DNA of 64,000 nucleotides. Origin: Syntrophaceae bacterium (lineage in GTDB: Bacteria; Desulfobacterota; Desulfomonilia; UBA1062). The notes below the pieces were generated by a model. The model saw only the letters and a program-made list of their open reading frames with translations. It was not told the DNA's origin and did not search any database. The stretch lies in assembly GCA_039680665.1 (NCBI GenBank), contig JBDKSM010000035.1, positions 337-64,336 of the forward strand. Direction: 5' to 3'. This document shows, one piece after another, positions 10,647 through 28,622 of this stretch. The position numbers and the translations under genes are program-made. Within the stretch, counting starts at the first letter, position 1, and the number at the start of each line of letters is the position of its first letter.

Positions 10647-10647
10647 A

Positions 10648-11775
10648 TTATTTGACCTTTACGTATTTGCCTTTGACCACCTTGAAGATGTACACGCCCT
10701 GCTTGACCACATCGCCGTTGTTATCGAAGCTCAACTTGCCGGTCACGCCGTCGAAATCCTTGACCGTGTCGAGATAGCCTCTCATCTGGTCCGGGGCGCC
10801 GCCCTTGGTGGCAATGGCCGTGGACACCAGGCGCGTCATGTCATAGGTGATAGCCGCGAACATGGCGTTGTTGGGTTCCTTGGTGTCGGCCTTGACGATC
10901 TTGTAATAGGCATCCTTGAACTTTTTGTTGGTGGGGGTGTTGTAATCCTCGTCATACTCGCTGCAGTTGATATGGCCTTCGGAGGCCTTGCCGGCCAGCT
11001 CGATGTACTTGGGCGCCATGTCACCGAAGACGCCCATGGATTGGGCCGTGATGCCCATGCGGCGGGCCTGGGAGATAGCGGGAGCGGTCTCCTGCAGATA
11101 GCCGGGGATAAAGAGCAGGTCAAAGGGCTTCTGCTTGAGCTTGGTCAGCTGGGCCGAGAAGTCGCGGTCGCCGACCATGAAGCTCTCCGTGCTGATTACA
11201 GGAATGCCGAGTTCAGCGAAACACTTGGTGAAGAGATCATTGCAGCCCTTGCCATAAGGCTCGTTGCTGTACAGGATGACCGGTTTGGTCGTCTTCAGGC
11301 TTTCCTTGGCGTATTTGGTGAGGCTTGCGGCCTGCTTGTCAATGCGGGTACAGCCGCGGTACACATATTCGCCCGCATCTGAGATCTTGGGCGAAGTGCC
11401 GTTGGGGGTGACGATGACGATCTTATCTCGCTGGGCCAAAGGCGCCACGGCCAACACGTTGCCGCTCATCATCGGGCCGATGATGACCTTGACCTTGTCC
11501 ATGGAGACCAGTTTCTGATAAGCGGCCACCGAGGCAGGGGCGCTGTCCTTCTCATCCTCGAAGATCACCTTGAGTTGTTTGCCGTTTATGCCGCCCGCGG
11601 CGTTGATTTCCTTGACCGCGATCTCGACACCGCGCTTGGCGGGCAGCCCGTCCGATGCGCCCTGCGAGAGCCTCAAAATGGCCCCGATCTTGATCTCCTC
11701 GGCAGCCCGTGCCTCGCTCAAACCTAAGCCCAATACCACCATTGCGACCATCACCAACAACCATAGTCTCTGCAT
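10648..11775 (-). CDS. Periplasmic substrate-binding protein of the ABC importer (LivK/Leu-Ile-Val-binding family fold), 375 aa
   Basis: Trimmed to MQRLWLLVMVAMVVLGLGLSEARA (signal peptide) with RBS GGAAGGAGGAAGGG. The ORF-track N-terminal extension is rejected. Confidence 0.8.
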   Translation of the reverse strand: MQRLWLLVMVAMVVLGLGLSEARAAEEIKIGAILRLSQGASDGLPAKRGVEIAVKEINAAGGINGKQLKVIFEDEKDSAPASVAAYQKLVSMDKVKVIIGPMMSGNVLAVAPLAQRDKIVIVTPNGTSPKISDAGEYVYRGCTRIDKQAASLTKYAKESLKTTKPVILYSNEPYGKGCNDLFTKCFAELGIPVISTESFMVGDRDFSAQLTKLKQKPFDLLFIPGYLQETAPAISQARRMGITAQSMGVFGDMAPKYIELAGKASEGHINCSEYDEDYNTPTNKKFKDAYYKIVKADTKEPNNAMFAAITYDMTRLVSTAIATKGGAPDQMRGYLDTVKDFDGVTGKLSFDNNGDVVKQGVYIFKVVKGKYVKVK

Positions 11776-11815
11776 CCCTTCCTCCTTCCCAAATTTCAAT
11801 TCGTATCTCGTTGTT

Positions 11816-11849
11816 GATAAAAAAGGCCATGGGGATTGCCCATGGCCTT
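11816..11849 (-). terminator. Intrinsic terminator/attenuator hairpin in the 5' leader of the liv-like/paaK operon
   Basis: Minus strand: AAGGCCATGGG-caatc-CCCATGGCCTT followed by TTTTTTATC, ending ~40 nt upstream of the SBP start codon. A candidate promoter (TTGACA-18-GATAAA) lies ~150 nt further upstream on the minus strand. Confidence 0.55.
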
Positions 11850-12093
11850 GTGTGTCTCTCTCGCGCACCCGGCCTATGGGCACCGTTTTTTCCGATAATA
11901 ATAAACGTAGCGATAGGCCTGAATGCATGCGTAGTTTCTCATAGCAGCGTTTATCCTTCGGGGAGGCCCTGGCTGTCAAGCGAAAAAGCAGGAAGGGATT
12001 AAAGGCGCTTCGTATACCAATCCGTAAAACGGATGTCTCTCAGGACATCAGGGCAACCAAGCCGGATGAGTCCTGGAAAGATACGAAGGCCGG

Positions 12094-13299
12094 CTACCGT
12101 AAAACCTGGCTGATATCATCGAGCAGGCGTTCGAGCCGGTTATCCGTGGCAAGTACGCTGGGCAGGGAAACGGTCACTTCCAGCCGGTCGGCGCAGCCTG
12201 TCAGGACCACGAAAGACGGGATACCGTCCACCCGCGGCGGTATCAAAAAAACCGTATCGGCCTGAAAACCGGCCCCGCGAAAATTGTCCCGATTGAAACG
12301 GCCCAGGTTGGAAAGCAGCGTCGAGGAGCTATACGTGCCCTTATAATGCCAGCTCAGGGTGATCAGTTTCAACCCGATCTGGAGCAAGGCGATCGGGATC
12401 ATGTCCACCACGGTTCCGCCCTCAAAGAGCATGCAATCATATTTCTCGTCCAGCTGCCGTTTGACCTCGCGGGCAATATCTTCGGGGCTGTCCTCAGGGG
12501 TTACCTCGACATAGAGGGCCATGGACATATTGTTGGTGGTCCGCAGACCGGGCTGCCGTTGTCTCAGATCCACGGGGATCGCCAGCATGACCGGACCAGA
12601 ACCATACTGCCGGGCGGAATGCGCCAGGGCCCAGCCGACCTTTCCCAGAACCTTGGAGAAGCTCCCCGTAAAGGTGAGCCTTTTCCAGCGCGTGCCCGCT
12701 TGGAACCCTCGCGCTCGCCCGGTGGGCGCGATGCTGTTGACCGGCGGCATTATGCGGGTGCGGTCGGTGAATTGGCGCAGAAAAGTGACCATACTGGGAG
12801 GATCTTCAAGCGAACCCAACGGCTCTTCATCGCGCAGGACCCGGAAGATATCCTCGGCCCAGTACACCGTGCCCATGCCGTCCATGGCGCCGTGGTTGGA
12901 CCTGAACACCAGGCGTGTCACCGGGCCGCTTTCCAGGTACAAGACCTCACAGGTAGGCCCGCGGTATGGCAGACCCGCCATCAGAAAGGGGGCGTTCTCC
13001 GAGCCGCGACCGTCCCAGGTAACGTCCTTCAGGCAGCGGACAGGCGGTGTCAGGCCTGAATCCAGCCAATAACAACCGCGCAAGGCGCCCCTCAAGATCA
13101 GCCGACTGCCCGGATTGGCCTCTGAGGCCTTGGCGACGGCGTCTTCCAAGCGGCCCTGGTCAATAACGCCCTGCCCCTCAACCACCACCTGGTTGGCATA
13201 CGGGGGGGCGACCGCATCGGCGGCCAGCCACAAACGTTCCACAATCGGCAAAGGTCTTTGGAATCGTGTGCCCATATTGGGTTTCTTATCGGCAGACAA
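12094..13299 (-). CDS. Stand-alone condensation-domain-like acyltransferase (401 aa), paralog of the N-terminal domain of the NRPS at 21231..25175
   Basis: C1-like motif PLPIVERLWL and an active-site variant SNHGAMDG (HxxxDG). Alignable along its full length with NRPS residues 1-400 (e.g. GKVGWALA, PVDLR..QPGLR, NLGR/NLGH blocks). Confidence 0.7.
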   Translation of the reverse strand: MSADKKPNMGTRFQRPLPIVERLWLAADAVAPPYANQVVVEGQGVIDQGRLEDAVAKASEANPGSRLILRGALRGCYWLDSGLTPPVRCLKDVTWDGRGSENAPFLMAGLPYRGPTCEVLYLESGPVTRLVFRSNHGAMDGMGTVYWAEDIFRVLRDEEPLGSLEDPPSMVTFLRQFTDRTRIMPPVNSIAPTGRARGFQAGTRWKRLTFTGSFSKVLGKVGWALAHSARQYGSGPVMLAIPVDLRQRQPGLRTTNNMSMALYVEVTPEDSPEDIAREVKRQLDEKYDCMLFEGGTVVDMIPIALLQIGLKLITLSWHYKGTYSSSTLLSNLGRFNRDNFRGAGFQADTVFLIPPRVDGIPSFVVLTGCADRLEVTVSLPSVLATDNRLERLLDDISQVLR

Positions 13300-16315: not shown

Positions 16316-16451
16316 GACCTACATCTATACCCGAAACGCCCCGCCGACTCAAGGTCAAAGGGGACCCAAAACCGATGGCCTTCCCATGCAGTGATACGTA
16401 TATATGGCGCCGCAGGACCTTGAGTTCATGAAGGCCACGGCGTATTTCAGC

Positions 16452-17273
16452 TCATGCGCCTTGGTCGGGTTTCACGAACAAGCGCCGTGTTTCCCGGGTA
16501 ATCATCCGCACCCGCAGGCGTCTTGAAAGAAGGCGCTCAAGGAGCACGGCCCCGAGTTTATTGAATGTACCGATGACCCTGCGCGGGCCTTTGTCCAGGG
16601 CATCCAAGGCCTCCCGGGCCACATCATCCGGAAGCATGGCCGGTGAACGTTTCAATTCTTCCTGGTTGATGCGGTGCATGACCGTGGGGGTGAGCGTGGC
16701 GCCGGCTACCACGGATAATACATGTACACCGTGATGCCGCCATTCTTCCCAGAGTCCCTCGCCCAGAACAATGTCAAAGGCCTTGGTGGCGGCGTAGTCG
16801 GCGACCAGCCCCGAGCCTTGCAGCCCGGCCATGGAGGACATCAAAATTACGCCGCCCCGACCGCGCCGCACCATGCCCGGACCCAAGGCATGGCATAAGA
16901 GCAGAGGCCCCCGGCAATTGACATTGAAGATGGCCAGGAGGTCTTCCAGCGGCGCCTGCGTGAATTCACGGACCTCGGAATTGCCGGCATTGTAAATCAG
17001 CAGCCCGATCTCAAGGTCATCCACCTGGGGCAGCAGTTCGTCCAACAGGTGCTCTGAGCCCAGATCGATGGCAATGGGCCGTACTTGAGCGGCATAGTGA
17101 TCACGCAACTCCCGGGCCAGGGTTTCCAGTTTTTCACGGCCACGGGCCAGCAGGACCACGTTCATCCCACGCTGAGCCAGTTGACGGGCATAGGCTTCGC
17201 CGATGCCCGTGGATGCCCCGGCAACCAAGGCCCAGGGTCCATACCGGGCGAGAAAAGATGCTTTATCTTTCAT
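16452..17273 (-). CDS. SDR-family oxidoreductase (short-chain dehydrogenase/reductase)
   Basis: Trimmed to MKDKASFLARYGPWALVAGASTGIGEAY (Rossmann TGxxxGxG). Start overlaps the upstream flavoprotein stop by 11 nt. Confidence 0.8.
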   Translation of the reverse strand: MKDKASFLARYGPWALVAGASTGIGEAYARQLAQRGMNVVLLARGREKLETLARELRDHYAAQVRPIAIDLGSEHLLDELLPQVDDLEIGLLIYNAGNSEVREFTQAPLEDLLAIFNVNCRGPLLLCHALGPGMVRRGRGGVILMSSMAGLQGSGLVADYAATKAFDIVLGEGLWEEWRHHGVHVLSVVAGATLTPTVMHRINQEELKRSPAMLPDDVAREALDALDKGPRRVIGTFNKLGAVLLERLLSRRLRVRMITRETRRLFVKPDQGA

Positions 17274-18123
17274 GAGGTTTACCCGCAAGAGGCTTGCCCT
17301 CCTTTGTAATCCATCGGCCGACATCCTTGAAGCGTGAGCGCAGCATGCGATGGTGTTCTCTCTTGGCGGTATATTCGATGACCTTGGGCTTCAGCCAGCC
17401 TTCGAAGTGTTCGACGAAGCCTTTTTCGCTGAACCTGCCCGAATCATGGAACGACTGCCAGGCACCGTCTAAGTATTCACCCGCGCTTTCGCACAAGACG
17501 CAGATCAATTGCCGGTCCCGTACAAAGAAGAGGTCCGAGCCGCAGGAGGGGCAGACGAGCGTCTTGGAAGGGAAATAGCAATGGGTGTCATCGCCTAAGG
17601 CCTTGGCGAGGCCTTGCGCCACCGGCGTATAGACTTCGTCGAGGCTTTCACCCGGCAGAGCGGCCTCGATGAAAGCGCTGCCCTTGAGCCGGAATCCCAT
17701 CATGCGGATGACGGCATTCACCATGGATTGGGTTACCCCGCGCCAGCTTTCAATGCCTCCGAAAACCGCGCTGACGGCATTGATCTTGCCGAAGACCGGA
17801 TGAAAGCCGGACATGCAGGCCAGCCGGTCGGCCAGGAGCTTGAATTGTCCGACCGGTCCCAGGACATAGGTCGGGATGGAAAAAATAACATGCTCGTATT
17901 CCGTCATGGTCTTTAGGATGAAATACAGATCGTCCTCGACCTGGCAGCGGTGCTCCGGATTCAGGCAGCGATAACACCCCATGCAGGGCCTAAGCGTAAA
18001 ATCCGTCAGACGCAGGACAGCGATGTGATCGGCAGGCGTAAAGAGCGCAACCTGTTTGGCAAACATCTCGCAATTTCCCAGGCGCCGGAACGATCCTGTG
18101 ACCAGTAAAACCGAAGTCGCCAC
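17263..18123 (-). CDS. NADPH-dependent FMN reductase/flavodoxin-like (iron-sulfur flavoprotein-like) with Cys-rich C-terminal zinc-ribbon-like extension
   Basis: GTG start VATSVLLVTGSFRRLGNCEMFAK, preceded by a perfect RBS TAAGGAGGA 8 nt upstream. C-terminal CPSCGSD...CVLCES motifs. Confidence 0.65.
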   Translation of the reverse strand: MATSVLLVTGSFRRLGNCEMFAKQVALFTPADHIAVLRLTDFTLRPCMGCYRCLNPEHRCQVEDDLYFILKTMTEYEHVIFSIPTYVLGPVGQFKLLADRLACMSGFHPVFGKINAVSAVFGGIESWRGVTQSMVNAVIRMMGFRLKGSAFIEAALPGESLDEVYTPVAQGLAKALGDDTHCYFPSKTLVCPSCGSDLFFVRDRQLICVLCESAGEYLDGAWQSFHDSGRFSEKGFVEHFEGWLKPKVIEYTAKREHHRMLRSRFKDVGRWITKEGKPLAGKPHER

Positions 18124-18216
18124 TCCGCAATCCTCCTTATGCATTTCATGCCAACCGCGATCCTACAGGATCAGGGGGCGGCCATGATCATAAGAAAATA
18201 ATTCCCCCCTGTCGAG

Positions 18217-20490
18217 CTATTTGAGCACGAAGGTCCGGCTGGCGCCCTCGAAGGCATGCAGCGTGTGGTCTTGGGTTTTGTAATCGCCATGGTAACGGAT
18301 GACATAGCGTCCCGGTTCAGCGTCAGAGGTGTTCCATACGATGGTGGCCGTGGAGCTGCGAGAATCACCCCGCTCCCAGATGAATTTGGTGTCCGGGTCC
18401 CAATCGCGGCGCACGATCTGATAGCCGCCGCCGGTTTCCTGCTCGACGGTCAGGAAGGTGTCCATGGAACGGCGGTTGTTGCGGGGGTTCGCCCCCTGGA
18501 AGGTCGCCTTGACCTTATCGCCGATGCTATAGGAGGCAGCTGGCTGGCTGATCACCTGGCCGTACGTTTTCCCGCTCGGCGCCTCATCGTATGGCATCGC
18601 GGTTGAGAAATCGAATTGATCGTTGCGTAAATCGAGCGGAAAAGGACCGGATGCCACAGGCGTACCGGCGAGGATGGCATCGCAGAGCTTGGCGTATTCC
18701 TGCTGGAAGGCTTCCAGCTCGTGCGGGCCGAACATGGTGCCGGCGCCTTCATAGCCCTGCTTCCCATATTCCTCGCCGGTTGCCAGGTAGGAGGCATAGG
18801 TATTGGACAATCCGGCGATCACGGCATGATCGACCTCACGATCCTGAAAACGCGAGAGCAGCGTGTTCTTAACGCGTCGGCCCGCCATGGTGGTAATCTC
18901 GGTGGGCTGGGCCGCGATGACAAGGTTGCCGATCTTGAGCACCTGCACCGGCAGCACCTGGGGCATCAAGGGGATGAATTTGACCAGGTTGAACGTCATC
19001 AGTCCCGTGGGCAGGATCACCGGTTTGACCCCCTGGCACTCGATATAATCCTTGGAAAGGGTGGTGGGCCAGATAAGGCCGATGGCGCCCGGCAAGAGCG
19101 TGGCCAGCAGCGTTTCCTGGATATCGGTGCCGCTGTTCCAGTCAATGGCGCCCACGTCATCTCTGGTTACGCCTTCGCTGAAGAGTGGGTACGGCGTGGG
19201 GTTGTCACAAGGGCTGCCGTAGGAATAGGAGGCCCCCATGCCGGAGGGACAGGTCGAGCAACCGGCCGCGTCAACCGCAAGAGAGCGCATGTCAACGAAC
19301 TTATGGCGGTAATCAACCGAACCGTGCACGGGTTGCATAACGCCCTGATAGAGCTCAAGGGCCTTGCGGTACTGCAGGGTGGCTTCAAGTTTGAGCACGA
19401 GGTTTTCCTCAATATCGGCCTCGCCCTTGGCCTCATCCCAGGGGAAGCCCTGGCGCGCGATCTCGCCTTCAGGGTCGGTGATTCCGTAGGCCTTCAGGGC
19501 TTTCACGGCGTCGGACTGCGAGAACGCATGCGTGGTGAAAGGCACGTTGGGCGTGACATCCCCGGAGTTGCTCTGCGCGAAGGCGGCCACGAACGTGAGG
19601 GGATCGGTATAATCGCCGCCCATATGCTTCTCGAACAAATAGGCGGCATGTCCCTTGCTGTCGCCGCTGATGAGATGATTGGACGGACCGATGCAATCGG
19701 GATGGACGGCGAACCAGTTGAGCATGCCGAGCCCCACTTCCCGGCCCTCGGCATCGTACCCCACGAATTTGAGCACGGTCATGGTGGTGTCGATGTTGCC
19801 GTCATAGGCGGCGCGCTCGGCCGCCGGATTGTTGTCATAGGCAACGGATGAACGGTTCCAGCCTGCAGCGGCAAGGTTGCCTTGGGCGATATAGATCCTG
19901 CCCGGCCTCAGGTTGGCATGGGCACGTTTGATGGAAGCGAAGATGCCGTCCGTCACGGCATCGAAGCTGTCCTGGATGAAACCCAGATTGGGTACGTTGT
20001 AGAGAAAATAATGCGAGAACCCCGCCACGGAAGAGTGGCTGTGGGTAGCGCTTAAGCAGACATTGTCGTTATTGTAATAGGGGCTGAGCTCGGGGTCGGC
20101 GGCCAGCCGACGGGCGATCTCCTGCTTGACGGATTGGCACATGGCCCATGTATCGGCATTCACAAAAACCACCCGTCTGGCAGGGGTTGCGGGATCGGCG
20201 ATGATAAAGCTTCGCGCCCACAGACGCATGGAAATTCCGGCGGTCTTCTGATCTGAAAAGGCGAAACCGCCCATAGTCACTTCCGAGGCCGGCCCGGTGA
20301 TATCATAGATGCCCACACCGATGAGGTAACGATCTCCATTGGCCGCATTGTCGGAGGTGGACCGTGTATCGCTGCTCCTTATCCCTGAATCTTGAGATGT
20401 ATGAGAATCCCCGGATTGGCATCCATTTAAGCCCAGCACCATGATCGCAATCAGCAGTAGTCCGAATCTTCCCGCAAGACCCCGCTTCAT
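18217..20490 (-). CDS. Neutral/alkaline ceramidase family amidohydrolase, predicted lipoprotein (757 aa)
   Basis: Lipobox LGLNGC followed by a Ser/Thr/Asp-rich linker. Full-length collinearity with neutral ceramidases: YLIGVGIYDITGP, SATHSHS, MLNWFAVHP, AAFAQSNSGDV, TFLTVE, IRYHGDYK. Confidence 0.85.
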   Translation of the reverse strand: MKRGLAGRFGLLLIAIMVLGLNGCQSGDSHTSQDSGIRSSDTRSTSDNAANGDRYLIGVGIYDITGPASEVTMGGFAFSDQKTAGISMRLWARSFIIADPATPARRVVFVNADTWAMCQSVKQEIARRLAADPELSPYYNNDNVCLSATHSHSSVAGFSHYFLYNVPNLGFIQDSFDAVTDGIFASIKRAHANLRPGRIYIAQGNLAAAGWNRSSVAYDNNPAAERAAYDGNIDTTMTVLKFVGYDAEGREVGLGMLNWFAVHPDCIGPSNHLISGDSKGHAAYLFEKHMGGDYTDPLTFVAAFAQSNSGDVTPNVPFTTHAFSQSDAVKALKAYGITDPEGEIARQGFPWDEAKGEADIEENLVLKLEATLQYRKALELYQGVMQPVHGSVDYRHKFVDMRSLAVDAAGCSTCPSGMGASYSYGSPCDNPTPYPLFSEGVTRDDVGAIDWNSGTDIQETLLATLLPGAIGLIWPTTLSKDYIECQGVKPVILPTGLMTFNLVKFIPLMPQVLPVQVLKIGNLVIAAQPTEITTMAGRRVKNTLLSRFQDREVDHAVIAGLSNTYASYLATGEEYGKQGYEGAGTMFGPHELEAFQQEYAKLCDAILAGTPVASGPFPLDLRNDQFDFSTAMPYDEAPSGKTYGQVISQPAASYSIGDKVKATFQGANPRNNRRSMDTFLTVEQETGGGYQIVRRDWDPDTKFIWERGDSRSSTATIVWNTSDAEPGRYVIRYHGDYKTQDHTLHAFEGASRTFVLK

Positions 20491-20521
20491 ACCTCCTCCT
20501 TCCCCCTTGCAACTAATGAAC

Positions 20522-21193
20522 CTATGCCATTTTATACCCTGACGGCAGACTCATAAAGCTGAAAACCAAGGTGTTTATCACGATGCTTCCTACCAGGAAT
20601 TCGAAGTCCGGCGGATACGGCCCGATTGGCCGCATGAGCCTGCCGCGAAAGCCTTGACCGTGCCATGTCAGTCCGGCGTCCATAAAATCAAGGTATACGC
20701 CGATCTGGGGGAAAAAGGCCTTGAATGCGGCCTCCTTGGCTGAAAAAAGCCGTACCAGACGCAGCGCATCCTGACCCACCCAGGCGCGTTCCTCATCCAT
20801 GCCGACCACCTGGCTGAACTCTTGATCGAACCGCTCCGGAATGGATTCAAGATCAATGCCGATCCCGGCGGCATGGTCCCGTGAACAAACGGCACAAACA
20901 GCGATCCCGGCCGTATGGGTGATGGAGCCGACATAGCCTTCCGGCCAGAGCGGTTCATACAAAGGACCCTGAAGGATGGGCGGCGGCGGGCTGAAACCGA
21001 GTTGCTTGAGGGCGGCATGCGCGGCGGCGCGACCGAGCACGAACTCGTCCCGGCGTTTGAGCGCCATGCGTGGACTTAAGAGCCGTGCCTCAGCAGGATC
21101 GAGGGAAAATCCCGCCGCTCCGTGCTTGGTCCTAACGGCAAAACCCACATACCCCTGGAATGGCGATCTGATCATGGCCGTCGGGAGCGACAA
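20522..21193 (-). CDS. Sfp/EntD-type 4'-phosphopantetheinyl transferase
   Basis: Motifs GIGIDLE and FSAKEAAFKA; 37 nt downstream of the NRPS stop, on the same strand. Confidence 0.8.
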   Translation of the reverse strand: MSLPTAMIRSPFQGYVGFAVRTKHGAAGFSLDPAEARLLSPRMALKRRDEFVLGRAAAHAALKQLGFSPPPPILQGPLYEPLWPEGYVGSITHTAGIAVCAVCSRDHAAGIGIDLESIPERFDQEFSQVVGMDEERAWVGQDALRLVRLFSAKEAAFKAFFPQIGVYLDFMDAGLTWHGQGFRGRLMRPIGPYPPDFEFLVGSIVINTLVFSFMSLPSGYKMA

Positions 21194-21230: not shown

Positions 21231-24200
21231 TCATGCCTCCATGGTCATCCGCGGCGTCGCTGACTGTCTCAGGCCGGAAACTTTGCCCGCTTCGGCGGCA
21301 TCAGAGCGCCACGCCTCTTCAAGGGCCTTGTCCGCAACTCCGGTTTCTCCCTCTCCCAGATAGCAGGCAAACGCATCGATCGTCATATATTTGTAGATCA
21401 TCATCAGGGGTATATCGCGCACAAGCTCCTGTTTCAAGCGGTTCTTGAGCATGATGACCTTGAGTGAATCACCACCCAGATCGAAGAAATTATCATGGAT
21501 GCCCACCCGCTCAAGGCCGAGTACTTCCGCCCACAGACGTGCGATTACTGTCTGGAGCTCGTTCTGCGGGGCCGTATACTCACCCGTGGCGGCGTCCGTG
21601 ATCTTGTAGGCATTCAGGACCTGCCGGTCGAGCTTGCCGTTGGTTGTGAGCGGCAACCGCTCCAGAAAGACGAAGTGCTTGGGGATCATATATTCCGGCA
21701 GGTAGCCCTGGAGGAATTCCGTGAGGATGCTTTTCAGGTTTACGTCTGCGGCGCCGCGGCCCTCTACGGTAGTGTCGTTATCTTCCGCGCGGCACACGAC
21801 ACAAGCGAGCAGGTGTTTGCCGGAGCCGCGCTCGTCTGAGGCGGCGATTACCGCCGCCTCGGCCACGGTGGGGTTCTTGAGCAGGGCGGCCTCGATCTCT
21901 CCCAGCTCAATGCGATGCCCATGGATCTTGACCTGGAAGTCCTCGCGGCCTAAAAACTCGATATTCCCATCCGGCAGCCACCGGCCGAGATCTCCGGTTT
22001 TATAGAGGCGTTCCCCGCTCTCGGGGTGGACTATGAAGCGTTGGCCGGTCTTGTCCGGATCATTCCAGTACCCCAGCGCCAGACCGATGCCGCCGATATG
22101 GAGTTCCCCGGCCACCCAGAGCGGACATGGATTGAGGTTCGCGTCCAGAACGTAGAAACGTTGATTCGCCATCGGCTTGCCGTACGGTATGCTGACCCAT
22201 TCTTTCTGCACCTCGGTAACGGGAAACAGGATGGACCAGATCGAGGCTTCGGTGGCGCCCCCTAAGCTGATGATTTCGGCTCCGGCATTCTGCGCGCGGA
22301 TACGCGCCGGCAGGCTTACCGGGATCCAGTCGCCGCTCAGCATGACCAGCCGCAAACAATCCGGTATGGCCTGAGGCGTCTGCTCGGCATAATCGACCAG
22401 CAGTTGCATCAAGGCCGGCACCGTGTTCCAGAGGGTGACCGAGTGGCGTAAGAGCAGGTCCGACCAGTGGGCGGGGTCCTGCCTGTCCTGGGCATCGGGG
22501 ATGACTACGGCCCCGCCGGCGGCCAGCAGGCCGAAGACATCGTAGACCGACAGATCGAAATTCAAGTTGGATAGCGCCAGAGTGCGATCTTCAGGTCCCA
22601 CCCCGAAGCGCTGGTTGATATCCCGGATGGTGTTGACCGCTCCTTGATGATCAATCATGACCCCCTTGGGACTGCCGGTCGAACCGGAGGTGAAAATAAC
22701 GTAGGCCAGATCGGTCGCCTGCTGGACCGAAGCGGGAGACAAATCATCCACGGCGGGCAGATCGTTCCGGTCGACGCACAGACACGTCCATTCGGTCAGC
22801 CAGGTCAGCTGCGCGTGGATACGGGTCTGGGTCAGGACAACCTTGACCCTGGTCTCTTCCAGCAGGTAGCGCAGGCGCTCCCGCGGTAAGCCGGGATCGA
22901 GCGGTACGTAAGCCGCGCCGGAGAAGAGCACCCCCATCACGCCCACGATCTGCTCCCACCCCTTTTCCATGAGCACCGCGACACAGGTGTTGGGCTCGGC
23001 GCCATGTACGCGCAAGTAGTGCCCGAGACGCATGGCCCTGTTCAACAATTCGCCGTAGCTTAAGCTGCGCCCGGGGGTGATCACGGCCGGCGCCTCCGGA
23101 TGCTGCAAAGCCTGCTCCAGGAACAGGGTGTGCAGCAGGTTGCTGGAAAAAGGCGCACGGGTTGCATTGACCTCATCATATAGGGCCTGATGCTCAACGG
23201 GTATGGCCGGGCAGCGGCACTGGTCCCAGCAGACTTCAGGAGAAGCAAGCACTTCCAGGTAGCGGTGATAGGACGCGAACATATCCTGAGCTACGCCCGA
23301 CTCAAAGACCTCATCTATACTGTCCCAGGTGAAGACCAGGTGTCCATCCAGCTCGCATGCCCGGTGATTAAGCCAGATCTGCGGCGCATCCGAGAGCTTG
23401 TCCGGCAACGAACCACCAGACCGCTCAGACACATCCTCCAAATCCGCGTACAGCATAACGGGGATTGGGGGAACGGGGCTTAACCCACTGATACGACCGA
23501 AGCCCGGAAGGGTCTGAAGCTCGTCCAAGAACCGCTCGTCAAGTTTAGTCTTGAGCTCTTCGGAGAGCAGCTGGGTGCACAGCGCAAAATCGTTGGCCGC
23601 CAGAGCATCCACCGGCAGGAGGGTCGTCACGCTGACGGGCTGGCCTGACGGTGCATCAGGGCCTTCGGCCGAAAGGCCTGGTCTCTGGCTCACACTCATG
23701 CCGATGGTGAAGCGCGGGGTCTTGCTCCAACGGGCCAGAACGCCGGAAAAGGCGCTGGCGATAACGGCTGTGGGAGTGACTCCCAGGCTGCATGCCCGGT
23801 CCTTAATCAATTGCCACTTTTCTGCATCCAGGCGCGCACTGCGGCGGGTCACCCGCGGCGGGGTTGCCGCAGAGGGGTTGGCGACCAAGGGCAGATCGGG
23901 GACGGGCGGCATGTTGGGCAGGCGTTCCTGCCAGAATGTCGAGGGCTCCGAAGGCGGCTTCGCTGGGCCGGCCTGGAGAGACTTCGCATCTTCAGGCGCC
24001 AAGGCCCGGCCGATATCCGCCAGCAAACGCTCAAAACGTCCTGTGTTGCCGAGTTGACGAGACACCGCGATGGTTAATTCTTCGCAGCCCTGACAACCGG
24101 CCAGCGCGACAAAAACCGCCGCCCGATCCAGGGGGGGGGGGACGAAGAAACAGGTCTCGGCACGGAAACTGTCGGCGCAAAAGGCTTGTGTATCGATATG

Positions 24201-25175
24201 ACCCAGATTGGAAATCATGGCGGAAGCATTATACCGGCCCCGCCGATAATTCAGTTTCGAAAGCATGGTAAACCCAAGACCGAGGAGCTTGAGCGGCGTC
24301 ACTTCAATGAATTCCGTACCGACATACGGCATGCAATCCGTCTTATTGTCGAGCTGTTTGAGAATATCATGGGTTATGGATTCAGGGCTCGATGCCTGCG
24401 TGATATCTACATACAGGGCGGTCGTCAGATTGCTGGTACACCGCAGGCCCGGTTGGTGAGATCGCAAGTCCACTGGCACGATCAAGCGCACCAGTCCATC
24501 ACCGTTTCTCCATGCGGATTGCGCCAACGCCCATCCTACCTTGCCTAATAAGACGGGCAGCGCACCCTTAAACGTCAGGCGGCGCCACATGATACCGTCC
24601 TGACCATCGGGCCGGGACATACCCGTGGGGGCGATGGCACGGTCGGCGTAGACATCACGGGTCTGCTGCGTGATGCTGTTCATGATCTGTTTGTCGGTGA
24701 TGGCCCATTGCGTGCCCAGGAACGGAGCGCCCTGCATGATCCGGAAAACATCTTCGGCCCAGGTTATCACCCCGCGGCCATCCATCACGCCATGGCTGGC
24801 CCGGAAAATAATGCGCGGCGTAGACCCCTCAACCCACAGCACTTCGCAGGTAGGTCCGCTATGGGGCAATCGGTCATGCAGGAAGGGCGCATTTTCAGGG
24901 CCGTACCCGTCCCATGCCTCTCCGGAGACGACCCTGACGCAAGGCGCCCGACCGGAATCCACCCAGCGCGAACCCCGCAGAGACCCTTTCAATACTAAGC
25001 GCGTCCCCGGATTAAGCTCGGAAGCCTTTCCTACCGCCGCGGCCAGGTGACCCACATCCAGGCTACCGCGGCCTTCCAAGACCATTTGGACGACAAAAGG
25101 CGAGGAGGCGCTGTCGATGCTCAGCCAGGACCGTTCAATATACGAAAGAGGTCGATGCAAATTGTTCCTAGTCAT
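21231..25175 (-). CDS. Single-module NRPS-like protein (~1314 aa): condensation-like domain (aa 1-400, active-site variant SHGVMDG), partial second condensation-like region (aa ~415-660), adenylation domain, peptidyl-carrier domain; no TE/R domain
   Basis: Start trimmed to MTRNNLHRPLSYIERSWL (ATG 25173-25175 with RBS GGAGGA). A-domain cores LSYGELL (A1), GAAYVPLDP (A2), LAYVIFTSGSTGSPKG (A3), NFDLSVYDVF (A4), GELHIGGIGLALGYW (A6), YKTGDL (A7), GREDFQVKIHGHRIELGEIE (A8), NGKLDR (A10). PCP motif FFDLGGDSLKVIML. Confidence 0.9.
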   Translation of the reverse strand: MTRNNLHRPLSYIERSWLSIDSASSPFVVQMVLEGRGSLDVGHLAAAVGKASELNPGTRLVLKGSLRGSRWVDSGRAPCVRVVSGEAWDGYGPENAPFLHDRLPHSGPTCEVLWVEGSTPRIIFRASHGVMDGRGVITWAEDVFRIMQGAPFLGTQWAITDKQIMNSITQQTRDVYADRAIAPTGMSRPDGQDGIMWRRLTFKGALPVLLGKVGWALAQSAWRNGDGLVRLIVPVDLRSHQPGLRCTSNLTTALYVDITQASSPESITHDILKQLDNKTDCMPYVGTEFIEVTPLKLLGLGFTMLSKLNYRRGRYNASAMISNLGHIDTQAFCADSFRAETCFFVPPPLDRAAVFVALAGCQGCEELTIAVSRQLGNTGRFERLLADIGRALAPEDAKSLQAGPAKPPSEPSTFWQERLPNMPPVPDLPLVANPSAATPPRVTRRSARLDAEKWQLIKDRACSLGVTPTAVIASAFSGVLARWSKTPRFTIGMSVSQRPGLSAEGPDAPSGQPVSVTTLLPVDALAANDFALCTQLLSEELKTKLDERFLDELQTLPGFGRISGLSPVPPIPVMLYADLEDVSERSGGSLPDKLSDAPQIWLNHRACELDGHLVFTWDSIDEVFESGVAQDMFASYHRYLEVLASPEVCWDQCRCPAIPVEHQALYDEVNATRAPFSSNLLHTLFLEQALQHPEAPAVITPGRSLSYGELLNRAMRLGHYLRVHGAEPNTCVAVLMEKGWEQIVGVMGVLFSGAAYVPLDPGLPRERLRYLLEETRVKVVLTQTRIHAQLTWLTEWTCLCVDRNDLPAVDDLSPASVQQATDLAYVIFTSGSTGSPKGVMIDHQGAVNTIRDINQRFGVGPEDRTLALSNLNFDLSVYDVFGLLAAGGAVVIPDAQDRQDPAHWSDLLLRHSVTLWNTVPALMQLLVDYAEQTPQAIPDCLRLVMLSGDWIPVSLPARIRAQNAGAEIISLGGATEASIWSILFPVTEVQKEWVSIPYGKPMANQRFYVLDANLNPCPLWVAGELHIGGIGLALGYWNDPDKTGQRFIVHPESGERLYKTGDLGRWLPDGNIEFLGREDFQVKIHGHRIELGEIEAALLKNPTVAEAAVIAASDERGSGKHLLACVVCRAEDNDTTVEGRGAADVNLKSILTEFLQGYLPEYMIPKHFVFLERLPLTTNGKLDRQVLNAYKITDAATGEYTAPQNELQTVIARLWAEVLGLERVGIHDNFFDLGGDSLKVIMLKNRLKQELVRDIPLMMIYKYMTIDAFACYLGEGETGVADKALEEAWRSDAAEAGKVSGLRQSATPRMTMEA
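24131..24141. repeat. G11 (C11 on coding strand) homopolymer inside the NRPS CDS, encoding PPP in ...FFVPPPLDR...
   Basis: Direct count: gcccgatcca + 11 G + acgaag. Confidence 0.9.
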
Positions 25176-25506
25176 ATGTTCCTCCATACTGTCGGATCTC
25201 CTCAGGTGCTGATGGCAAGCATGTCACAAGCTCCTTGCCGATCGCCCGTGGCGGAAATAAATTTCATTTACATGAAAACTATTTCCCATCCACCATTCTA
25301 CGCCACTACGCCAAAACACCTCCAGTCCTCTGTTTGCGCCCGCAATTCGATCGCAACGCGACCGCGATGCTCATTTATGCTTGTTTTTCTGCAACACGCA
25401 TGCCATCTAACGAACCCTACCTACCGGTCATTTATCAGCCGCACTTCTTCCCAAGGCGCCATGATAACCTTGACCGGCGCTCGATTTTCACGTAGTCAAA
25501 GGCCTC

Positions 25507-26519: not shown

Positions 26520-28374
26520 CTAAAGCGCAATGTCCACCTGGTAGGCGTGGCTGTCAACGGTGCGCGACATCGGATAAGCCGCTTTTTCCAGGACCTTGAG
26601 CATGGACTGGTTGTCGCGCCAGACGATCGCCCGCACGATTTCATAGGCAAGCGTGCGGCCGATGGCGACCATGGACTCGAATAGGTAGGTCCCTATACCC
26701 AGACGTTGCCAGGCCGGGTCCACCATGGCAGCGAACTCGCACACCCGCCGACCGCCGCTCTCTTCGTCCGGAGCGATATGCGCCACGGCCACGATGCGTT
26801 CCTGCTTGTCGCCTAAGGCCTGGACAACCAGGGCCATGGATTTCGTGTAATCGACATTCACCAGATACTGCGCCTGTTTATGGTGCAATGAGGCCATATG
26901 ACGCAGAAAGCGATGGAACCGGTCGTCCTTGCTCATGGCATAGAACAGATTCTGTATGGCGCGCTCGTCGGTCACCTTGACCGGCCGTATATGCACCTCC
27001 CTGTCGCCGAAGGCCCGGATCTGTTCGTGAGCGCTCGGGTAACAGGCCTCCGCAGGCGGCAGGGCCTGGTCTTCGTAGAGGTATTTTTTCCCCTTGGCTT
27101 CTTCGAGCAGCCATGGTCTGAATTTGGGGTGGGCAATCGTGATGAGCGCCAGCGCCCGTTCGCGGATGGATTTTCCGAACAGGTTGACGCACCCGTATTC
27201 GGTGACCACATAATTGACATCGCTCTGGGTGGTGACGATCCCGATCCGACTGTCGGTAAATTCCGGGACGATGCGGGAGAAACGGCCGTCACGCGAGGTC
27301 GAGCGCAGCGCGATGATGCCCTTGCCGCCGAGGGTGAACATCGCCGTGCGGTTGAAAACCGCATGTCCCAAGGCCCCGAAGAACGACGTGGGCTCGCCGA
27401 GGCCGACGCATGACTGCCCGGTCAGGTCGATCTCGACCGCTCCGTTGATGGCGATGAAGCGTTCATGGGAAAGAATCCGGGCCGGGTCGCTGATAGAGGA
27501 CAGGGCAAGGATTTCGACATCACGATTTTCGTGTACATACTCGAAGACCTTCTGGCTGCCGATGCACAAGCTTGAGGTGACGGCTGGGGCCTCAACCACA
27601 GCTGCCCCTGTGGCTAGCGCCCCGGCGGCGGCAAGATCGACGATGCGATCGGTGATGATCTCCGAATGGATACGCAAGTTTTGCTTGTCCTTCAAAAATT
27701 GCATGGCGGCGTCGGGAATCCGGCCGAACCCCACCTGAATAGTGGATCCGTCCTCGACCAAACGGGCCACGTTGCGTCCCACCGCAAGGGTCTCGGGATC
27801 AGGCTCCTCCTGACGGAAGGTCACGAGCGGCTCGTCGTGCTCCACGATATAATCGATATCCGTTAGCGGGATCAAACTATCGCCCCGGGTGATGGGCATA
27901 TGCCGGTTGACCTGGGCGATCACTCTTTCGGCCTTCCCAACGATGGCGCGCATGATATCCACCATAATGCCCAGACTGGGCATACCCTCCTCGTTGGGCG
28001 GGCTCAGTTGGATGATGGCGGTGTTGATCCTGATGTAGCCTTCATCAAACAGCTTGAACATGCCCAATGTGGAGAGAGGTAGATGGTCGGCCTGACCTTC
28101 CGCAAAGGCCGATCTCATCGCCGGGGCGACGAAGAAGGTCTGTATCCGGAAACGGGAGCCGAAATCACCGCCATAATCCGCATAGCTCCGTAAGGGCACG
28201 GAGGTATACACGTGGACATCGCTCAGGTGCATGTTATCGAAGATGAGGTGTTTGGCCAGATACTGAGGTTCTCCGCATCCGGACTCGACATACACGCATG
28301 ACCCCGGCTGGATAAGCTCCAGCAGGCGCTCAACGGTAGTTATCTTGCTCGTATACTCCTCTTTCCACATCATA
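26520..28374 (-). CDS. Acetyl-CoA hydrolase/transferase (ACH) family protein fused to a C-terminal GNAT acetyltransferase domain
   Basis: N-terminal two ACH lobes; C-terminal ~170 aa with the GNAT core (…QRLGIGTYLFES…). Start trimmed to ATGATG at 28374. The track start at 28415 is a TTG. Confidence 0.75.
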
Positions 28375-28622
28375 GCGGGCCCATTATCTCTACCACTGCG
28401 TTTTTCGTATTTCAAACCAAGGCCAACACCCTATCGTCATGTCGCGGCTGAGAAATTAACCGATCACCGCGATGATCTTCCAGGGCTATTGATCTCGGAG
28501 GCGCCAATTATCCGTGAAAATGCGGGGCGATTCCATTGGACAAAAGCCTGCAAGCCATGGCACAGTAAGATGCCCCCTAAGGGACAAATCCTTGTCAGGG
28601 CCGGGGAGCACGAACCATTGAG

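What the first reader, a model, noticed from the sequence alone, without database searches (positions are those of the whole stretch)
18217..20490. Neutral-ceramidase-family lipoprotein encoded immediately after the NRPS-PPTase pair
There is full-length collinearity with eukaryotic and bacterial neutral ceramidases (N-acyl amide hydrolases), including the N-terminal YLIGVGxxDITGP block and the C-terminal TFLTVE and IRYxG blocks. It has a lipoprotein signal and a long S/T/D-rich tether. In a locus predicted to make an N-acylated product, a periplasm-facing N-deacylase is reminiscent of prodrug-activation or maturation logic (ClbP-type or PvdQ-type steps) carried out by an unrelated enzyme family. 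Alternatively it may hydrolyse host or partner sphingolipids; both would be unusual for a syntroph-like anaerobe.
Basis: partly seen in the sequence, partly recalled or inferred. Interest (0 to 1): 0.65.

Follow-up and report, generated by a model that had tools for sequence, protein, structure and literature searches.

The report
Ordinary lipoprotein ceramidase beside an NRPS
This gene encodes an intact, membrane-anchored enzyme of the well-known neutral ceramidase family, but comparison with related genomes shows its position next to a peptide-synthetase gene is a lineage-specific accident, so it is most likely an ordinary lipid-scavenging enzyme.

Summary
ORF 18217-20490 (minus strand, 757 aa) is a full-length neutral/alkaline ceramidase-family protein (PF04734 5.7e-145; PF17048 1.2e-45). 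Every Zn-ligand and catalytic residue of the P. aeruginosa and human enzymes is conserved. The predicted fold has TM 0.90-0.91 to 4WGK/2ZXC. It has a signal peptide with a lipobox-like Cys24 and a 30-aa disordered S/T/D-rich tether. It lies 31 bp after the PPTase.

The interpretation that it matures the NRPS product is not supported. Of 89 ceramidase-homolog loci, only one same-genus sibling has the NRPS/PPTase. The closest syntenic sibling (NRPS 86 % identical) has only a frameshifted 300-nt relic of the ceramidase. Another sibling keeps scrambled fragments. A 55 % NRPS relative has NRPS+PPTase without it. So NRPS+PPTase is the conserved unit and the ceramidase is a dispensable passenger, under purifying selection where intact (dN/dS 0.17).

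Its nearest relatives are in Leptospirales/Spirochaetota MAGs. Several Smithella genomes carry other copies, so it is not unusual in syntrophs. Elsewhere, homologs sit beside beta-oxidation genes or a kinase/aminotransferase/aldolase module.

Most likely role (inferred): envelope-anchored hydrolysis of exogenous ceramide-type lipids to supply fatty acids. The protein is already annotated in NCBI. Low interest.

The parts
18217..20490 (-). Complete ORF (757 aa) of a neutral/alkaline non-lysosomal ceramidase-family lipoprotein
   Evidence: ORF. PF04734 and PF17048. PDB hits 2ZWS and 4WGK. Identical to an NCBI MAG protein annotated as a ceramidase domain protein.
20492..20500 (-). Shine-Dalgarno sequence AGGAGGAGG, just upstream of the ATG
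   Evidence: Read directly from the sequence.
20419..20490 (-). Signal peptide with lipobox-like L-N-G-C (residues 1-24, Cys24)
   Evidence: Sequence. Cys24 is conserved in at least 90 % of alignment A1. The strict lipobox rule is not met (Asn at -2), but the sibling has LGGC.
20329..20418 (-). Disordered S/T/D-rich tether (residues 25-54)
   Evidence: 16 of 30 residues are S/T/D. pLDDT is below 50 for residues 23-50.
18700..20328 (-). Catalytic domain (residues 55-597). Putative Zn ligands H150, H263, E531, Y568; catalytic H152, R213, Y580; GDVTPN motif at 310-315.
   Evidence: PF04734 covers the full model. Residue mapping to PaCD H97/H99/R160/H204/E411/Y448/Y460 comes from the alignment. 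In the 92-sequence alignment H150, H152, R213, H263, E531 and Y568 are invariant and Y580 is >=90 % conserved.
19405..19539 (-). Subclade-specific ~45-residue helical insertion (residues ~318-362) directly after GDVTPNVPFT. It lies at the same site as the human-specific 30-residue subdomain.
   Evidence: Present in P0001-P0020 and P0023; absent from the Myxococcota, Leptospira and Oligoflexus copies and from PaCD. Modelled as helices 325-335 and 340-347 with pLDDT 92-96. The human Leu358-Lys387 subdomain is described in PMC6952831.
18226..18693 (-). C-terminal immunoglobulin-like domain (residues 600-755)
   Evidence: PF17048, E 1.2e-45. All-beta in the model. The Ig-fold hits correspond to this domain.
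20522..21193 (-). Context gene: Sfp-type 4'-phosphopantetheinyl transferase. It is a conserved partner of the NRPS, not of the ceramidase.
   Evidence: PF17837 and PF01648. Follows the NRPS in L001, L090, L091 and L092.
21231..25187 (-). Context gene: single-module NRPS. Domains: C-like N-terminal domain (1-400), C-terminal half of a Cy domain (~410-656), A, T.
   Evidence: Pfam. Cy-domain PDB hits (EpoB, Irp2/HMWP2, PchE, BmdB). Only six full-length relatives were found.
17263..18144 (-). Context gene: FMN_red-family flavoprotein, 72 bp downstream of the ceramidase
   Evidence: PF03358. Retained in L001, L091 and L092; absent in L090.
16452..17324 (-). Context gene: classical short-chain dehydrogenase/reductase
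   Evidence: PF00106. Only generic SDR hits in the PDB. Missing in L092.

Best explanation
The gene encodes a functional Zn-dependent amidase of the neutral/alkaline ceramidase family.

Localisation: it is exported by a signal peptide, probably lipid-anchored at Cys24, and held away from the membrane by a ~30-residue disordered tether.

Chemistry: like its characterised relatives, it should use a Zn-activated water to cleave the N-acyl bond of ceramide-type lipids, releasing a long-chain fatty acid and a sphingoid base. Zn would be bound by H150, H263, E531 and Y568. H152, R213 and Y580 would stabilise the transition state.

Physiological role: in this Syntrophaceae MAG the most likely role is scavenging exogenous sphingolipids from eukaryotic or Bacteroidota-type necromass, to feed fatty-acid oxidation.

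Relation to the NRPS: the enzyme is not a dedicated component of the adjacent NRPS-PPTase unit. It is an accessory gene, related most closely to Leptospirales/Spirochaetota genes, that landed in a variable slot between the PPTase and RNase R genes and has since been lost again in sister lineages.

Shown here: family, fold, active-site conservation, export signal, purifying selection, lack of conserved linkage to the NRPS.

Inferred: lipidation, ceramide as the actual substrate, the scavenging role, co-transcription with its neighbours.
For: Family and fold:
- Full-length PF04734 and PF17048 matches.
- 2ZWS and 4WGK at about 1e-110.
- AF2 model with pLDDT 90.9 and pTM 0.91; TM 0.90-0.91 to 4WGK, 2ZXC and 2ZWS.

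Active site: H150, H152, R213, H263, E531, Y568 and Y580 correspond to PaCD H97, H99, R160, H204, E411, Y448 and Y460. All are invariant in the 26-sequence alignment. In the 92-sequence alignment all are invariant except Y580, which is >=90 % conserved. The human equivalents H196, R257, Y579 and Y591 are the catalytic residues named in PMC6952831.

The gene is functional: dN/dS is 0.17 against the 78 % identical sibling.

Export: signal peptide with conserved Cys24 and a disordered tether.

No coupling to the NRPS:
- Only 1 of 89 ceramidase loci has the NRPS and PPTase.
- L091 (NRPS 86 % identical, whole locus syntenic) retains only a frameshifted relic of ceramidase codons 657-757.
- L092 retains fragments of codons 128-188 and 344-403.
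- L090 (NRPS 55 %) has NRPS+PPTase followed by unrelated genes.
- The same interval also shows strain-level presence or absence of an M10 peptidase gene.

Catabolic context of homologs:
- In Leptospira the ceramidase sits beside TetR, FadH-like and acyl-CoA dehydrogenase genes.
- In at least 15 loci, including Smithella, it abuts a regulator/FGGY kinase/aminotransferase/aldolase/MFS module.

Precedent: P. aeruginosa, which makes no sphingolipids, secretes CerN. The authors suggest it may use CerN to break down sphingolipids from other organisms for fatty acids as a nutrient, and beta-oxidation genes rise moderately in the presence of sphingomyelin (PMC5150637).

The window itself encodes acyl-CoA dehydrogenase-like and FadH-like proteins.
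Against: - No biochemical data exist for this subclade.
- The protein scores only 357 bits against the NCBIfam neutral-ceramidase equivalog model, whose cut-off is 1200. Substrate identity with the P. aeruginosa enzyme therefore cannot be assumed.
- The subclade carries a ~45-residue helical insertion at the position that helps shape the substrate pocket in the human enzyme. This could change specificity.
- The human Ser354 equivalent is Thr313.
- The lipobox is non-canonical (Asn at -2).
- The tight spacing on one strand (31 bp and 72 bp) and the lack of an obvious terminator make co-transcription with the NRPS and PPTase likely in this organism. An opportunistic functional link in this lineage is therefore not strictly excluded.
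- The kinase/aminotransferase/aldolase module seen next to other homologs is not in this window.
- Whether the organism makes its own sphingolipids could not be examined.
Confidence: 0.62

Rival explanations
1. One reading: the ceramidase is a periplasm-facing N-deacylase that activates or matures an N-acylated product of the adjacent NRPS. This would be functionally analogous to ClbP or PvdQ but use an unrelated fold.
For: - Same strand, 31 bp after the PPTase, with a strong RBS and no predicted terminator between the genes.
- The arrangement is kept in the 78 % identical sibling L001.
- The NRPS has an N-terminal C-like domain with an HxxxDG-type motif (SHGVMDG, read from the translation) that could acylate.
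Against: - 88 of 89 ceramidase loci have no NRPS or PPTase.
- In the sibling with the closest NRPS (L091, 86 %) the ceramidase is a frameshifted 300-nt relic, while the NRPS, PPTase and all other neighbours are intact at 85-94 % identity.
- L092 has only fragments of it.
- The 55 % NRPS relative has no ceramidase.
- The NRPS shows no recognisable complete starter-C, and its A domain sits behind half a Cy domain.
- The locus is core chromosome, not a multi-gene BGC with exporter or resistance genes.
Confidence: 0.05
2. The enzyme acts on the organism's own lipids. It would turn over or remodel endogenous sphingolipids or related N-acyl envelope lipids (housekeeping turnover) rather than scavenge foreign ones.
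For: - Lipoprotein anchoring keeps the enzyme at the cell's own envelope.
- Sphingolipid synthesis is known in several 'deltaproteobacterial' lineages such as Myxococcota (established knowledge, not tested here). Myxococcota carry homologs.
Against: - No Spt, CerS or CerR-like genes are in the 64-kb window.
- The gene is dispensable in sibling lineages.
- Its phylogeny is mosaic and HGT-like rather than vertical.
- Homologs cluster with catabolic genes and transporters, not with biosynthetic genes.
Confidence: 0.13
3. The subclade with the helical insertion has shifted specificity to another N-acyl substrate, such as N-acyl amino acids, ornithine- or serine-glycine-type aminolipids, N-acylethanolamines or lipopeptides. 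It would still work as a scavenging amidase unrelated to the NRPS.
For: - A ~45-residue insertion lies at the pocket-forming site.
- The score is far below the NCBIfam equivalog cut-off.
- Thr313 replaces the Ser seen in the human and PaCD enzymes.
Against: - All residues that contact Zn and the amide are conserved.
- The human enzyme, which also has an insertion here, is a strict ceramidase (PMC6952831).
- Members of the same insertion-bearing subclade (L010, L014-L016, L019) sit next to the kinase/aminotransferase module. That module fits an amino-polyol (sphingoid base) product (this last point is inference).
Confidence: 0.15

Closest known systems
Pseudomonas aeruginosa neutral ceramidase CerN/PaCD (PA0845; PDB 2ZWS, 2ZXC)
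   Same: - Two-domain architecture: catalytic domain plus C-terminal Ig-like domain.
- ~33-34 % structure-based identity, TM 0.91; E 6.9e-111.
- Identical Zn-ligand and catalytic residues.
- Exported enzyme in a bacterium that makes no sphingolipids and may use foreign sphingolipids as a nutrient source (PMC5150637).
   Different: - PaCD is secreted and soluble, not lipobox-anchored.
- PaCD lacks the ~45-residue helical insertion after the GxxSPN motif.
- PaCD has Ser where this protein has Thr313.
- PaCD is regulated by the AraC-type sphingosine sensor SphR; no such regulator is adjacent here.
- This protein falls far below the NCBIfam equivalog cut-off built around that enzyme type (357 vs 1200 bits).
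Human neutral ceramidase ASAH2 (PDB 4WGK)
   Same: - Collinear over residues 55-754 (E 2.9e-108); TM 0.90.
- Catalytic H196, R257, Y579 and Y591 equivalents are conserved.
- Membrane-tethered through an N-terminal anchor plus a Ser/Thr-rich stalk, an analogous topology.
- Has an insertion at the same site after GDVSPN.
   Different: - The human insertion is a 30-residue disulfide-bonded subdomain. Here it is ~45 residues, Cys-free and helical.
- The human anchor is a type II transmembrane segment with an O-glycosylated mucin box, not a lipobox.
- Eukaryotic glycosylation sites are absent.
Annotated ceramidase lipoproteins of Leptospira and uncultured Leptospirales/Spirochaetota
   Same: - Nearest relatives of the window protein outside its own genus: 67 % identity to a Leptospirales MAG, 51-53 % to other Spirochaetota MAGs.
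- Same lipobox Cys.
- The MAG relatives (L011-L015, L023) share the helical insertion; cultured Leptospira copies (44-46 % identity) lack it.
- Hosts are likewise obligate fatty-acid oxidisers (established knowledge for Leptospira).
   Different: - None is biochemically characterised in the searched literature.
- Their neighbours are TetR/FadH/ACAD genes, or Aas-like, START or PlsB genes, not an NRPS.
ClbP (colibactin prodrug peptidase, S12 family) and PvdQ (Ntn-hydrolase acylase of pyoverdine maturation)
   Same: Only the general idea: a periplasmic or envelope-located hydrolase that removes an N-acyl group, encoded beside an NRPS.
   Different: - Unrelated folds and catalytic mechanisms (Ser or N-terminal nucleophile versus Zn-activated water).
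- ClbP and PvdQ are conserved components of their clusters. Here the ceramidase is lost in sibling loci that keep the NRPS.

Membership tests
Neutral/alkaline non-lysosomal ceramidase (PF04734 + PF17048; EC 3.5.1.23 type) | Full-length N-terminal catalytic domain plus C-terminal Ig-like domain | tested here: met
   PF04734 covers 1-509 of 509 model positions (E 5.7e-145). PF17048 covers 2-168 of 169 (E 1.2e-45).
Neutral/alkaline non-lysosomal ceramidase (PF04734 + PF17048; EC 3.5.1.23 type) | Zn ligands His, His, Glu, Tyr (PaCD H97, H204, E411, Y448; this ligand assignment is from my own knowledge of the PaCD structure paper) | tested here: met
   H150, H263, E531 and Y568 align to these positions. 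They are invariant in 92 homologs.
Neutral/alkaline non-lysosomal ceramidase (PF04734 + PF17048; EC 3.5.1.23 type) | Catalytic His, Arg and Tyr (human H196, R257, Y591; Y579 is also a Zn ligand) | tested here: met
   H152, R213 and Y580 are conserved. The roles of these residues are as stated in PMC6952831.
Neutral/alkaline non-lysosomal ceramidase (PF04734 + PF17048; EC 3.5.1.23 type) | Ser of the GDxSPN motif (human Ser354, which positions Arg257) | tested here: inconclusive
   The motif is GDVTPN, with Thr313 instead of Ser. Thr is invariant in the 26-sequence alignment and >=90 % conserved in the 92-sequence set. This is a conservative change of unknown consequence.
Neutral/alkaline non-lysosomal ceramidase (PF04734 + PF17048; EC 3.5.1.23 type) | Three-dimensional fold of solved neutral ceramidases | tested here: met
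   AF2 model has pLDDT 90.9. Foldseek gives TMt 0.90 (4WGK) and 0.91 (2ZXC, 2ZWS), E about 1e-73.
Neutral/alkaline non-lysosomal ceramidase (PF04734 + PF17048; EC 3.5.1.23 type) | Equivalog-level similarity to characterised bacterial neutral ceramidase (NCBIfam NF041649 cut-off) | tested here: not met
   357.5 bits against a cut-off of 1200. The protein is a family member but not an equivalog by NCBI's criterion.
Neutral/alkaline non-lysosomal ceramidase (PF04734 + PF17048; EC 3.5.1.23 type) | Hydrolysis of the N-acyl bond of ceramide | not testable with these tools
   Requires an enzyme assay.
Bacterial lipoprotein (Lgt/LspA substrates) | Positively charged n-region, hydrophobic h-region and a lipobox ending in Cys | tested here: inconclusive
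   MKRGLAGR followed by a hydrophobic stretch and L-N-G-C24. The strict PROSITE-like pattern fails because of Asn at -2. The sibling has LGGC, 39 of 92 homologs pass the strict rule, and 69 of 92 have an N-terminal Cys.
NRPS prodrug-activating or maturation hydrolases (ClbP-type, PvdQ-type logic) | Conserved co-occurrence of the hydrolase with its NRPS across genomes | tested here: not met
   1 of 89 ceramidase loci has the NRPS. Among the four NRPS-bearing relatives of the window examined, one keeps the ceramidase intact, two carry relics and one lacks it.
NRPS prodrug-activating or maturation hydrolases (ClbP-type, PvdQ-type logic) | Homology to the S12 peptidase or Ntn-hydrolase families | tested here: not met
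   Only ceramidase domains are detected. The only full-length structural matches are ceramidases.
NRPS prodrug-activating or maturation hydrolases (ClbP-type, PvdQ-type logic) | NRPS loading module that builds an N-acyl prodrug motif (complete starter C domain) | tested here: not met
   Pfam Condensation scores below its cut-off and covers only 89 residues. Residues 410-656 match the C-terminal half of Cy domains. Residues 1-400 have no Pfam or PDB sequence match in these scans; their C-like character rests on an SHGVMDG motif and a sub-threshold PapA_C hit in the 45 % identical paralog.

The most novel reading that the evidence does not exclude
In this one Syntrophaceae lineage the horizontally acquired ceramidase has been co-opted. 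It would be co-transcribed with the NRPS and PPTase and would deacylate or recycle an N-acyl-cysteine-type lipid made by the unusual C-like/half-Cy/A/T synthetase. That would be an NRPS maturation or turnover step carried out by a ceramidase fold, and an optional one, since sister lineages lost it.
Probability: 0.05. Interest if true: 0.6.

Novelty: new member of a known kind. Interest (0 to 1): 0.2.

Why it matters
For the finding as posed, the value is mainly in closing it. The attractive 'new prodrug-activation enzyme family' story does not survive comparative genomics, so effort should not go into it.

What remains is modest:
- An uncharacterised, insertion-bearing subclade of lipoprotein ceramidases is shared by horizontal transfer between Spirochaetota and syntrophic Thermodesulfobacteriota.
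- These are two groups of fatty-acid oxidisers, which hints that sphingolipids are a fatty-acid source in anaerobic sludge and sediment communities.

The more promising lead is outside the window. A regulator/FGGY-kinase/aminotransferase/aldolase/MFS module recurs next to ceramidase homologs and may be an undescribed route for breaking down the sphingoid base.

Tried and rejected
1. NRPS coupling. Tested in both directions (ceramidase loci searched for the NRPS; NRPS relatives searched for the ceramidase) and rejected.

2. SDR as a 3-ketosphinganine-reductase-like partner. The downstream SDR (16452-17324) gives only generic SDR and FabG-like hits, and the gene is missing in L092. No support.

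3. Other lipid genes in the window. I looked for the kinase/aminotransferase/aldolase module and for sphingolipid synthesis genes. None were found; only ACAD-like and FadH-like genes are present.

4. Promoter and terminator scan. Counts were not above the shuffled expectation, so it says nothing firm about operon structure.

5. Literature searches for ceramidases in Leptospira, Smithella or Syntrophaceae, and for a bacterial sphingoid-base catabolic pathway with these enzymes. Nothing relevant turned up in the accessible library.

6. Cluster-member lookup for organism names returned truncated names only. Taxonomy came instead from the genome contigs titles and the NRPS hit name 'Syntrophaceae bacterium'.

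7. A-domain specificity was only read by eye. It looks like a Cys-type DLYNMSLIWK code, recalled from memory. It was not tested with a tool and is not used as evidence.

8. The NJ tree has no bootstrap support. It is used only for the coarse statement that the phylogeny is mosaic.
Full report
**1. Observation**

A strong Shine-Dalgarno sequence (AGGAGGAGG, 20492-20500) precedes it, and it starts 31 bp after the stop codon of the upstream gene.

Pfam assigns residues 55-597 to PF04734 over the entire model (E 5.7e-145) and residues 600-755 to PF17048 (E 1.2e-45). The only solved relatives are the P. aeruginosa neutral ceramidase (2ZWS/2ZXC, E 6.9e-111) and human neutral ceramidase (4WGK, E 2.9e-108), which align collinearly from residue 55 to 754.

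The upstream genes are an Sfp-type PPTase (20522-21193) and a 1318-aa NRPS (21231-25187). Downstream on the same strand are an FMN_red flavoprotein and an SDR. The exact protein is already in NCBI, annotated as a neutral/alkaline non-lysosomal ceramidase domain protein from a MAG. The NRPS hit names the organism 'Syntrophaceae bacterium'.

**2. Is it an intact enzyme?**

From the alignment, the PaCD residues map to the query as follows:

| PaCD | Query |
|---|---|
| H97 | H150 |
| H99 | H152 |
| R160 | R213 |
| H204 | H263 |
| E411 | E531 |
| Y448 | Y568 |
| Y460 | Y580 |

- Positions were verified.
- All seven are invariant in a 26-sequence alignment. In a 92-sequence alignment six remain invariant and Y580 is at least 90 % conserved.
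- The human equivalents H196, R257, Y579 and Y591 are the catalytic residues named in the review PMC6952831.
- The one deviation is Thr313 in GDVTPN, where human and PaCD have Ser. Thr is the rule throughout this bacterial clade.

An AlphaFold2 model built on the 92-sequence alignment is confident (pLDDT 90.9, pTM 0.91). It superposes on 4WGK and 2ZXC/2ZWS with TM 0.90-0.91. No other PDB fold covers the catalytic domain. Against its 78 %-identical sibling the gene shows dN/dS = 0.17, similar to its neighbours. It is a working gene.

**3. N-terminus and a subclade feature**

The N-terminus reads MKRGLAGR, then a hydrophobic stretch, then L-N-G-C24.

- Cys24 is conserved in at least 90 % of close homologs.
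- 69 of 92 homologs have an N-terminal Cys, and the sibling has a canonical LGGC.
- The window's Asn at position -2 fails a strict PROSITE-type lipobox rule. Lipidation is therefore likely but inferred.

Residues 25-54 are 16/30 S/T/D. Residues 23-50 are modelled as disordered, pLDDT below 50. This stretch is a tether.

A ~45-residue insertion (about 318-362) directly after GDVTPNVPFT is shared by the closest ~20 homologs. It is absent from the Myxococcota, Leptospira and Oligoflexus copies and from PaCD. It is modelled as two confident helices. It lies at the site where human ASAH2 carries its own 30-residue subdomain (Leu358-Lys387; PMC6952831).

The protein scores 357 bits against the NCBIfam equivalog model for neutral ceramidase, whose cut-off is 1200. 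Family membership is secure, but substrate equivalence is not proven.

**4. Is it linked to the NRPS? From the ceramidase side**

Contexts of individual close homologs:

- The 78 % sibling (L001) keeps the whole arrangement, with all neighbours 72-88 % identical. This is simply genus-level synteny.
- The two 69 % homologs, the 67 % homolog, and the 51-53 % homologs sit in unrelated contexts.

A scan of species-representative genomes returned 79 further loci. tblastn with the window's NRPS, PPTase, FMN_red and SDR against all 89 loci found the NRPS and PPTase only in L001.

**5. Is it linked to the NRPS? From the NRPS side**

The NRPS has only six full-length relatives in 5.8 billion proteins.

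| Locus | NRPS identity | State of the ceramidase |
|---|---|---|
| L091 | 86 % | No gene. The locus is syntenic from the M23 peptidase to the ABC transporter, neighbours 85-94 % identical. The 422-bp PPTase-FMN_red spacer holds the last ~300 nt of the ORF with two 1-nt deletions (codons 657-757 in three frames). |
| L092 | 81 % | A 116-aa ORF with pieces of codons 128-188 and 344-403. The SDR is also lost. |
| L090 | 55 % | NRPS+PPTase followed by unrelated genes. |

The ceramidase was therefore present at this spot in the ancestor of the genus-level clade and has decayed independently at least twice, while the NRPS and PPTase were preserved. NRPS+PPTase is the selected unit, and the ceramidase is dispensable to it.

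Contigs 99.7-100 % identical to the window also carry an extra M10 metallopeptidase gene between the SDR and LapA genes that the window lacks. So the PPTase-to-RNase R interval is a hotspot for gain and loss of genes, two of which (the ceramidase and the M10 peptidase) carry N-terminal hydrophobic export-type sequences.

**6. The NRPS premise**

- Residues 410-656 match only the C-terminal half of heterocyclisation (Cy) domains: EpoB, Irp2/HMWP2, PchE, BmdB.
- Pfam Condensation scores below threshold.
- Residues 1-400 have no Pfam or PDB sequence match in these scans. They carry an SHGVMDG (HxxxDG-type) motif and have a 45 %-identical free-standing paralog at 12094-13299, which has only a sub-threshold PapA_C hit.
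- 'A locus predicted to make an N-acylated product' is thus a possibility, not a finding.
- The rest of the window is core chromosome: aminoacyl-tRNA synthetases, RelA/SpoT, IspG, QueF, Dus.

**7. What the homologs' company suggests**

A rough NJ tree places window+L001 as sister to a Leptospirales MAG clade. Smithella copies fall in two other clades. This mosaic points to repeated transfer between Spirochaetota and syntrophic Thermodesulfobacteriota.

Unbiased clustering of neighbours within 6 kb found recurrent partners:

- TetR regulators: 19 loci.
- FGGY-family kinase: 19 loci.
- Class-III aminotransferase: 13 loci.
- MFS transporter: 12 loci.
- Class-II aldolase: 9 loci.
- In Leptospira: TetR plus a FadH-like reductase plus an acyl-CoA dehydrogenase.

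These are catabolic contexts. P. aeruginosa offers a documented precedent. It makes no sphingolipids, secretes CerN, and shows moderately raised beta-oxidation gene expression in the presence of sphingomyelin. The authors suggest the bacterium uses CerN to obtain fatty acids from other organisms' sphingolipids (PMC5150637). Leptospira (established knowledge) and Syntrophaceae/Smithella (e.g. PMC5606693 and PMC3258425, titles) live by oxidising fatty acids or alkanes.

The best-supported reading is therefore an envelope-anchored ceramidase that liberates fatty acids from exogenous sphingolipids. The window itself lacks the kinase/aminotransferase/aldolase module, so the fate of the sphingoid base in this organism is unknown.

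**8. Verdict**

- The family assignment and catalytic conservation are supported.
- The prodrug or maturation interpretation is not supported. A residual probability of about 5 % remains for a lineage-specific co-option.
- A ceramidase is not unusual for a syntroph.
- This is a new, uncharacterised member (an insertion-bearing lipoprotein subclade) of a well-known family, and it is already correctly annotated in public databases. Interest is low.
- The recurrent ceramidase-adjacent catabolic module in other genomes is the only lead here that might repay further work.

Noticed in passing
Loci L010, L016, L019, L030, L045, L035, L053, L024, L048, L062, L036, L039, L047, L014, L015 (genes directly flanking the ceramidase at ~10001-12200 in each locus): In at least 15 genomes (Spirochaetota, Smithella, a Polyangiaceae MAG, Leptospiraceae) the ceramidase homolog directly abuts a conserved module. 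The module holds a regulator (TetR or a 7TM-GAF-AraC protein), an FGGY-family kinase, a class-II aldolase or a ~448-aa protein (Pfam-typed as RuBisCO-like in L010 only), a class-III aminotransferase and an MFS transporter. It could be an undescribed route for catabolising the released sphingoid base (transamination, phosphorylation, aldol-type cleavage). No description was found in the searched literature.
   Followed up: partly
window 16402-16424 (junction); L093:8042-8968: Contigs 99.7-100 % identical to the window (L093-L095) carry an extra 308-aa Peptidase_M10 gene (HEFGHAMGLTH zinc motif, N-terminal hydrophobic segment) between the SDR and LapA genes. The window lacks it. The two BLAST segments overlap by ~22 nt in the window, which suggests deletion or insertion between short direct repeats. 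This is a strain-level polymorphism.
   Followed up: partly
window 12094-13299 (-) and 23997-25187 (-) (NRPS residues ~1-400): A free-standing 401-aa ORF downstream of RNase R is a 45 %-identical paralog of the NRPS N-terminal domain (C-like, SHGVMDG motif; weak PapA_C hit). It is conserved in L091 and L092. Both the domain and the paralog are uncharacterised.
   Followed up: partly
window 21231-25187 (-): The NRPS has an unusual architecture: an unknown C-like domain, only the C-terminal half of a heterocyclisation domain (residues 410-656), then A and T, with no TE or R release domain. It is always followed by an Sfp-type PPTase. Only six full-length relatives exist in the 5.8-billion-protein database; the two that carry an organism name are labelled Syntrophaceae and Deltaproteobacteria. 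By eye the A-domain code looks Cys-type; this was not tested.
   Followed up: partly
L091:14643-15063 and L092:6391-6752: Independent pseudogene relics of the ceramidase lie in two sibling lineages. In L091 the last ~300 nt of the ORF remain, with two 1-nt deletions. In L092 there is a 116-aa ORF made of scrambled internal fragments, and the SDR gene is also lost.
   Followed up: yes
L010:7343-9565 and 10001-12223: Two tandem ceramidase paralogs (P0017 and P0014, both 740 aa) lie side by side on one metagenomic contig, next to the MFS/TetR/FGGY/aminotransferase/RuBisCO-like module.
   Followed up: no
window 18217-20490 compared with L001:2813-5086: Synonymous divergence of the ceramidase between the window and its sibling (dS 0.83) is higher than for the flanking genes (dS 0.51-0.56). 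This may reflect recombination or a different history for this gene.
   Followed up: no
window 26520-28415 (-): An unusual fusion of an acetyl-CoA hydrolase/transferase (PF02550 and PF13336) with a C-terminal GNAT acetyltransferase domain lies upstream of the NRPS. It is conserved in L091.
   Followed up: no
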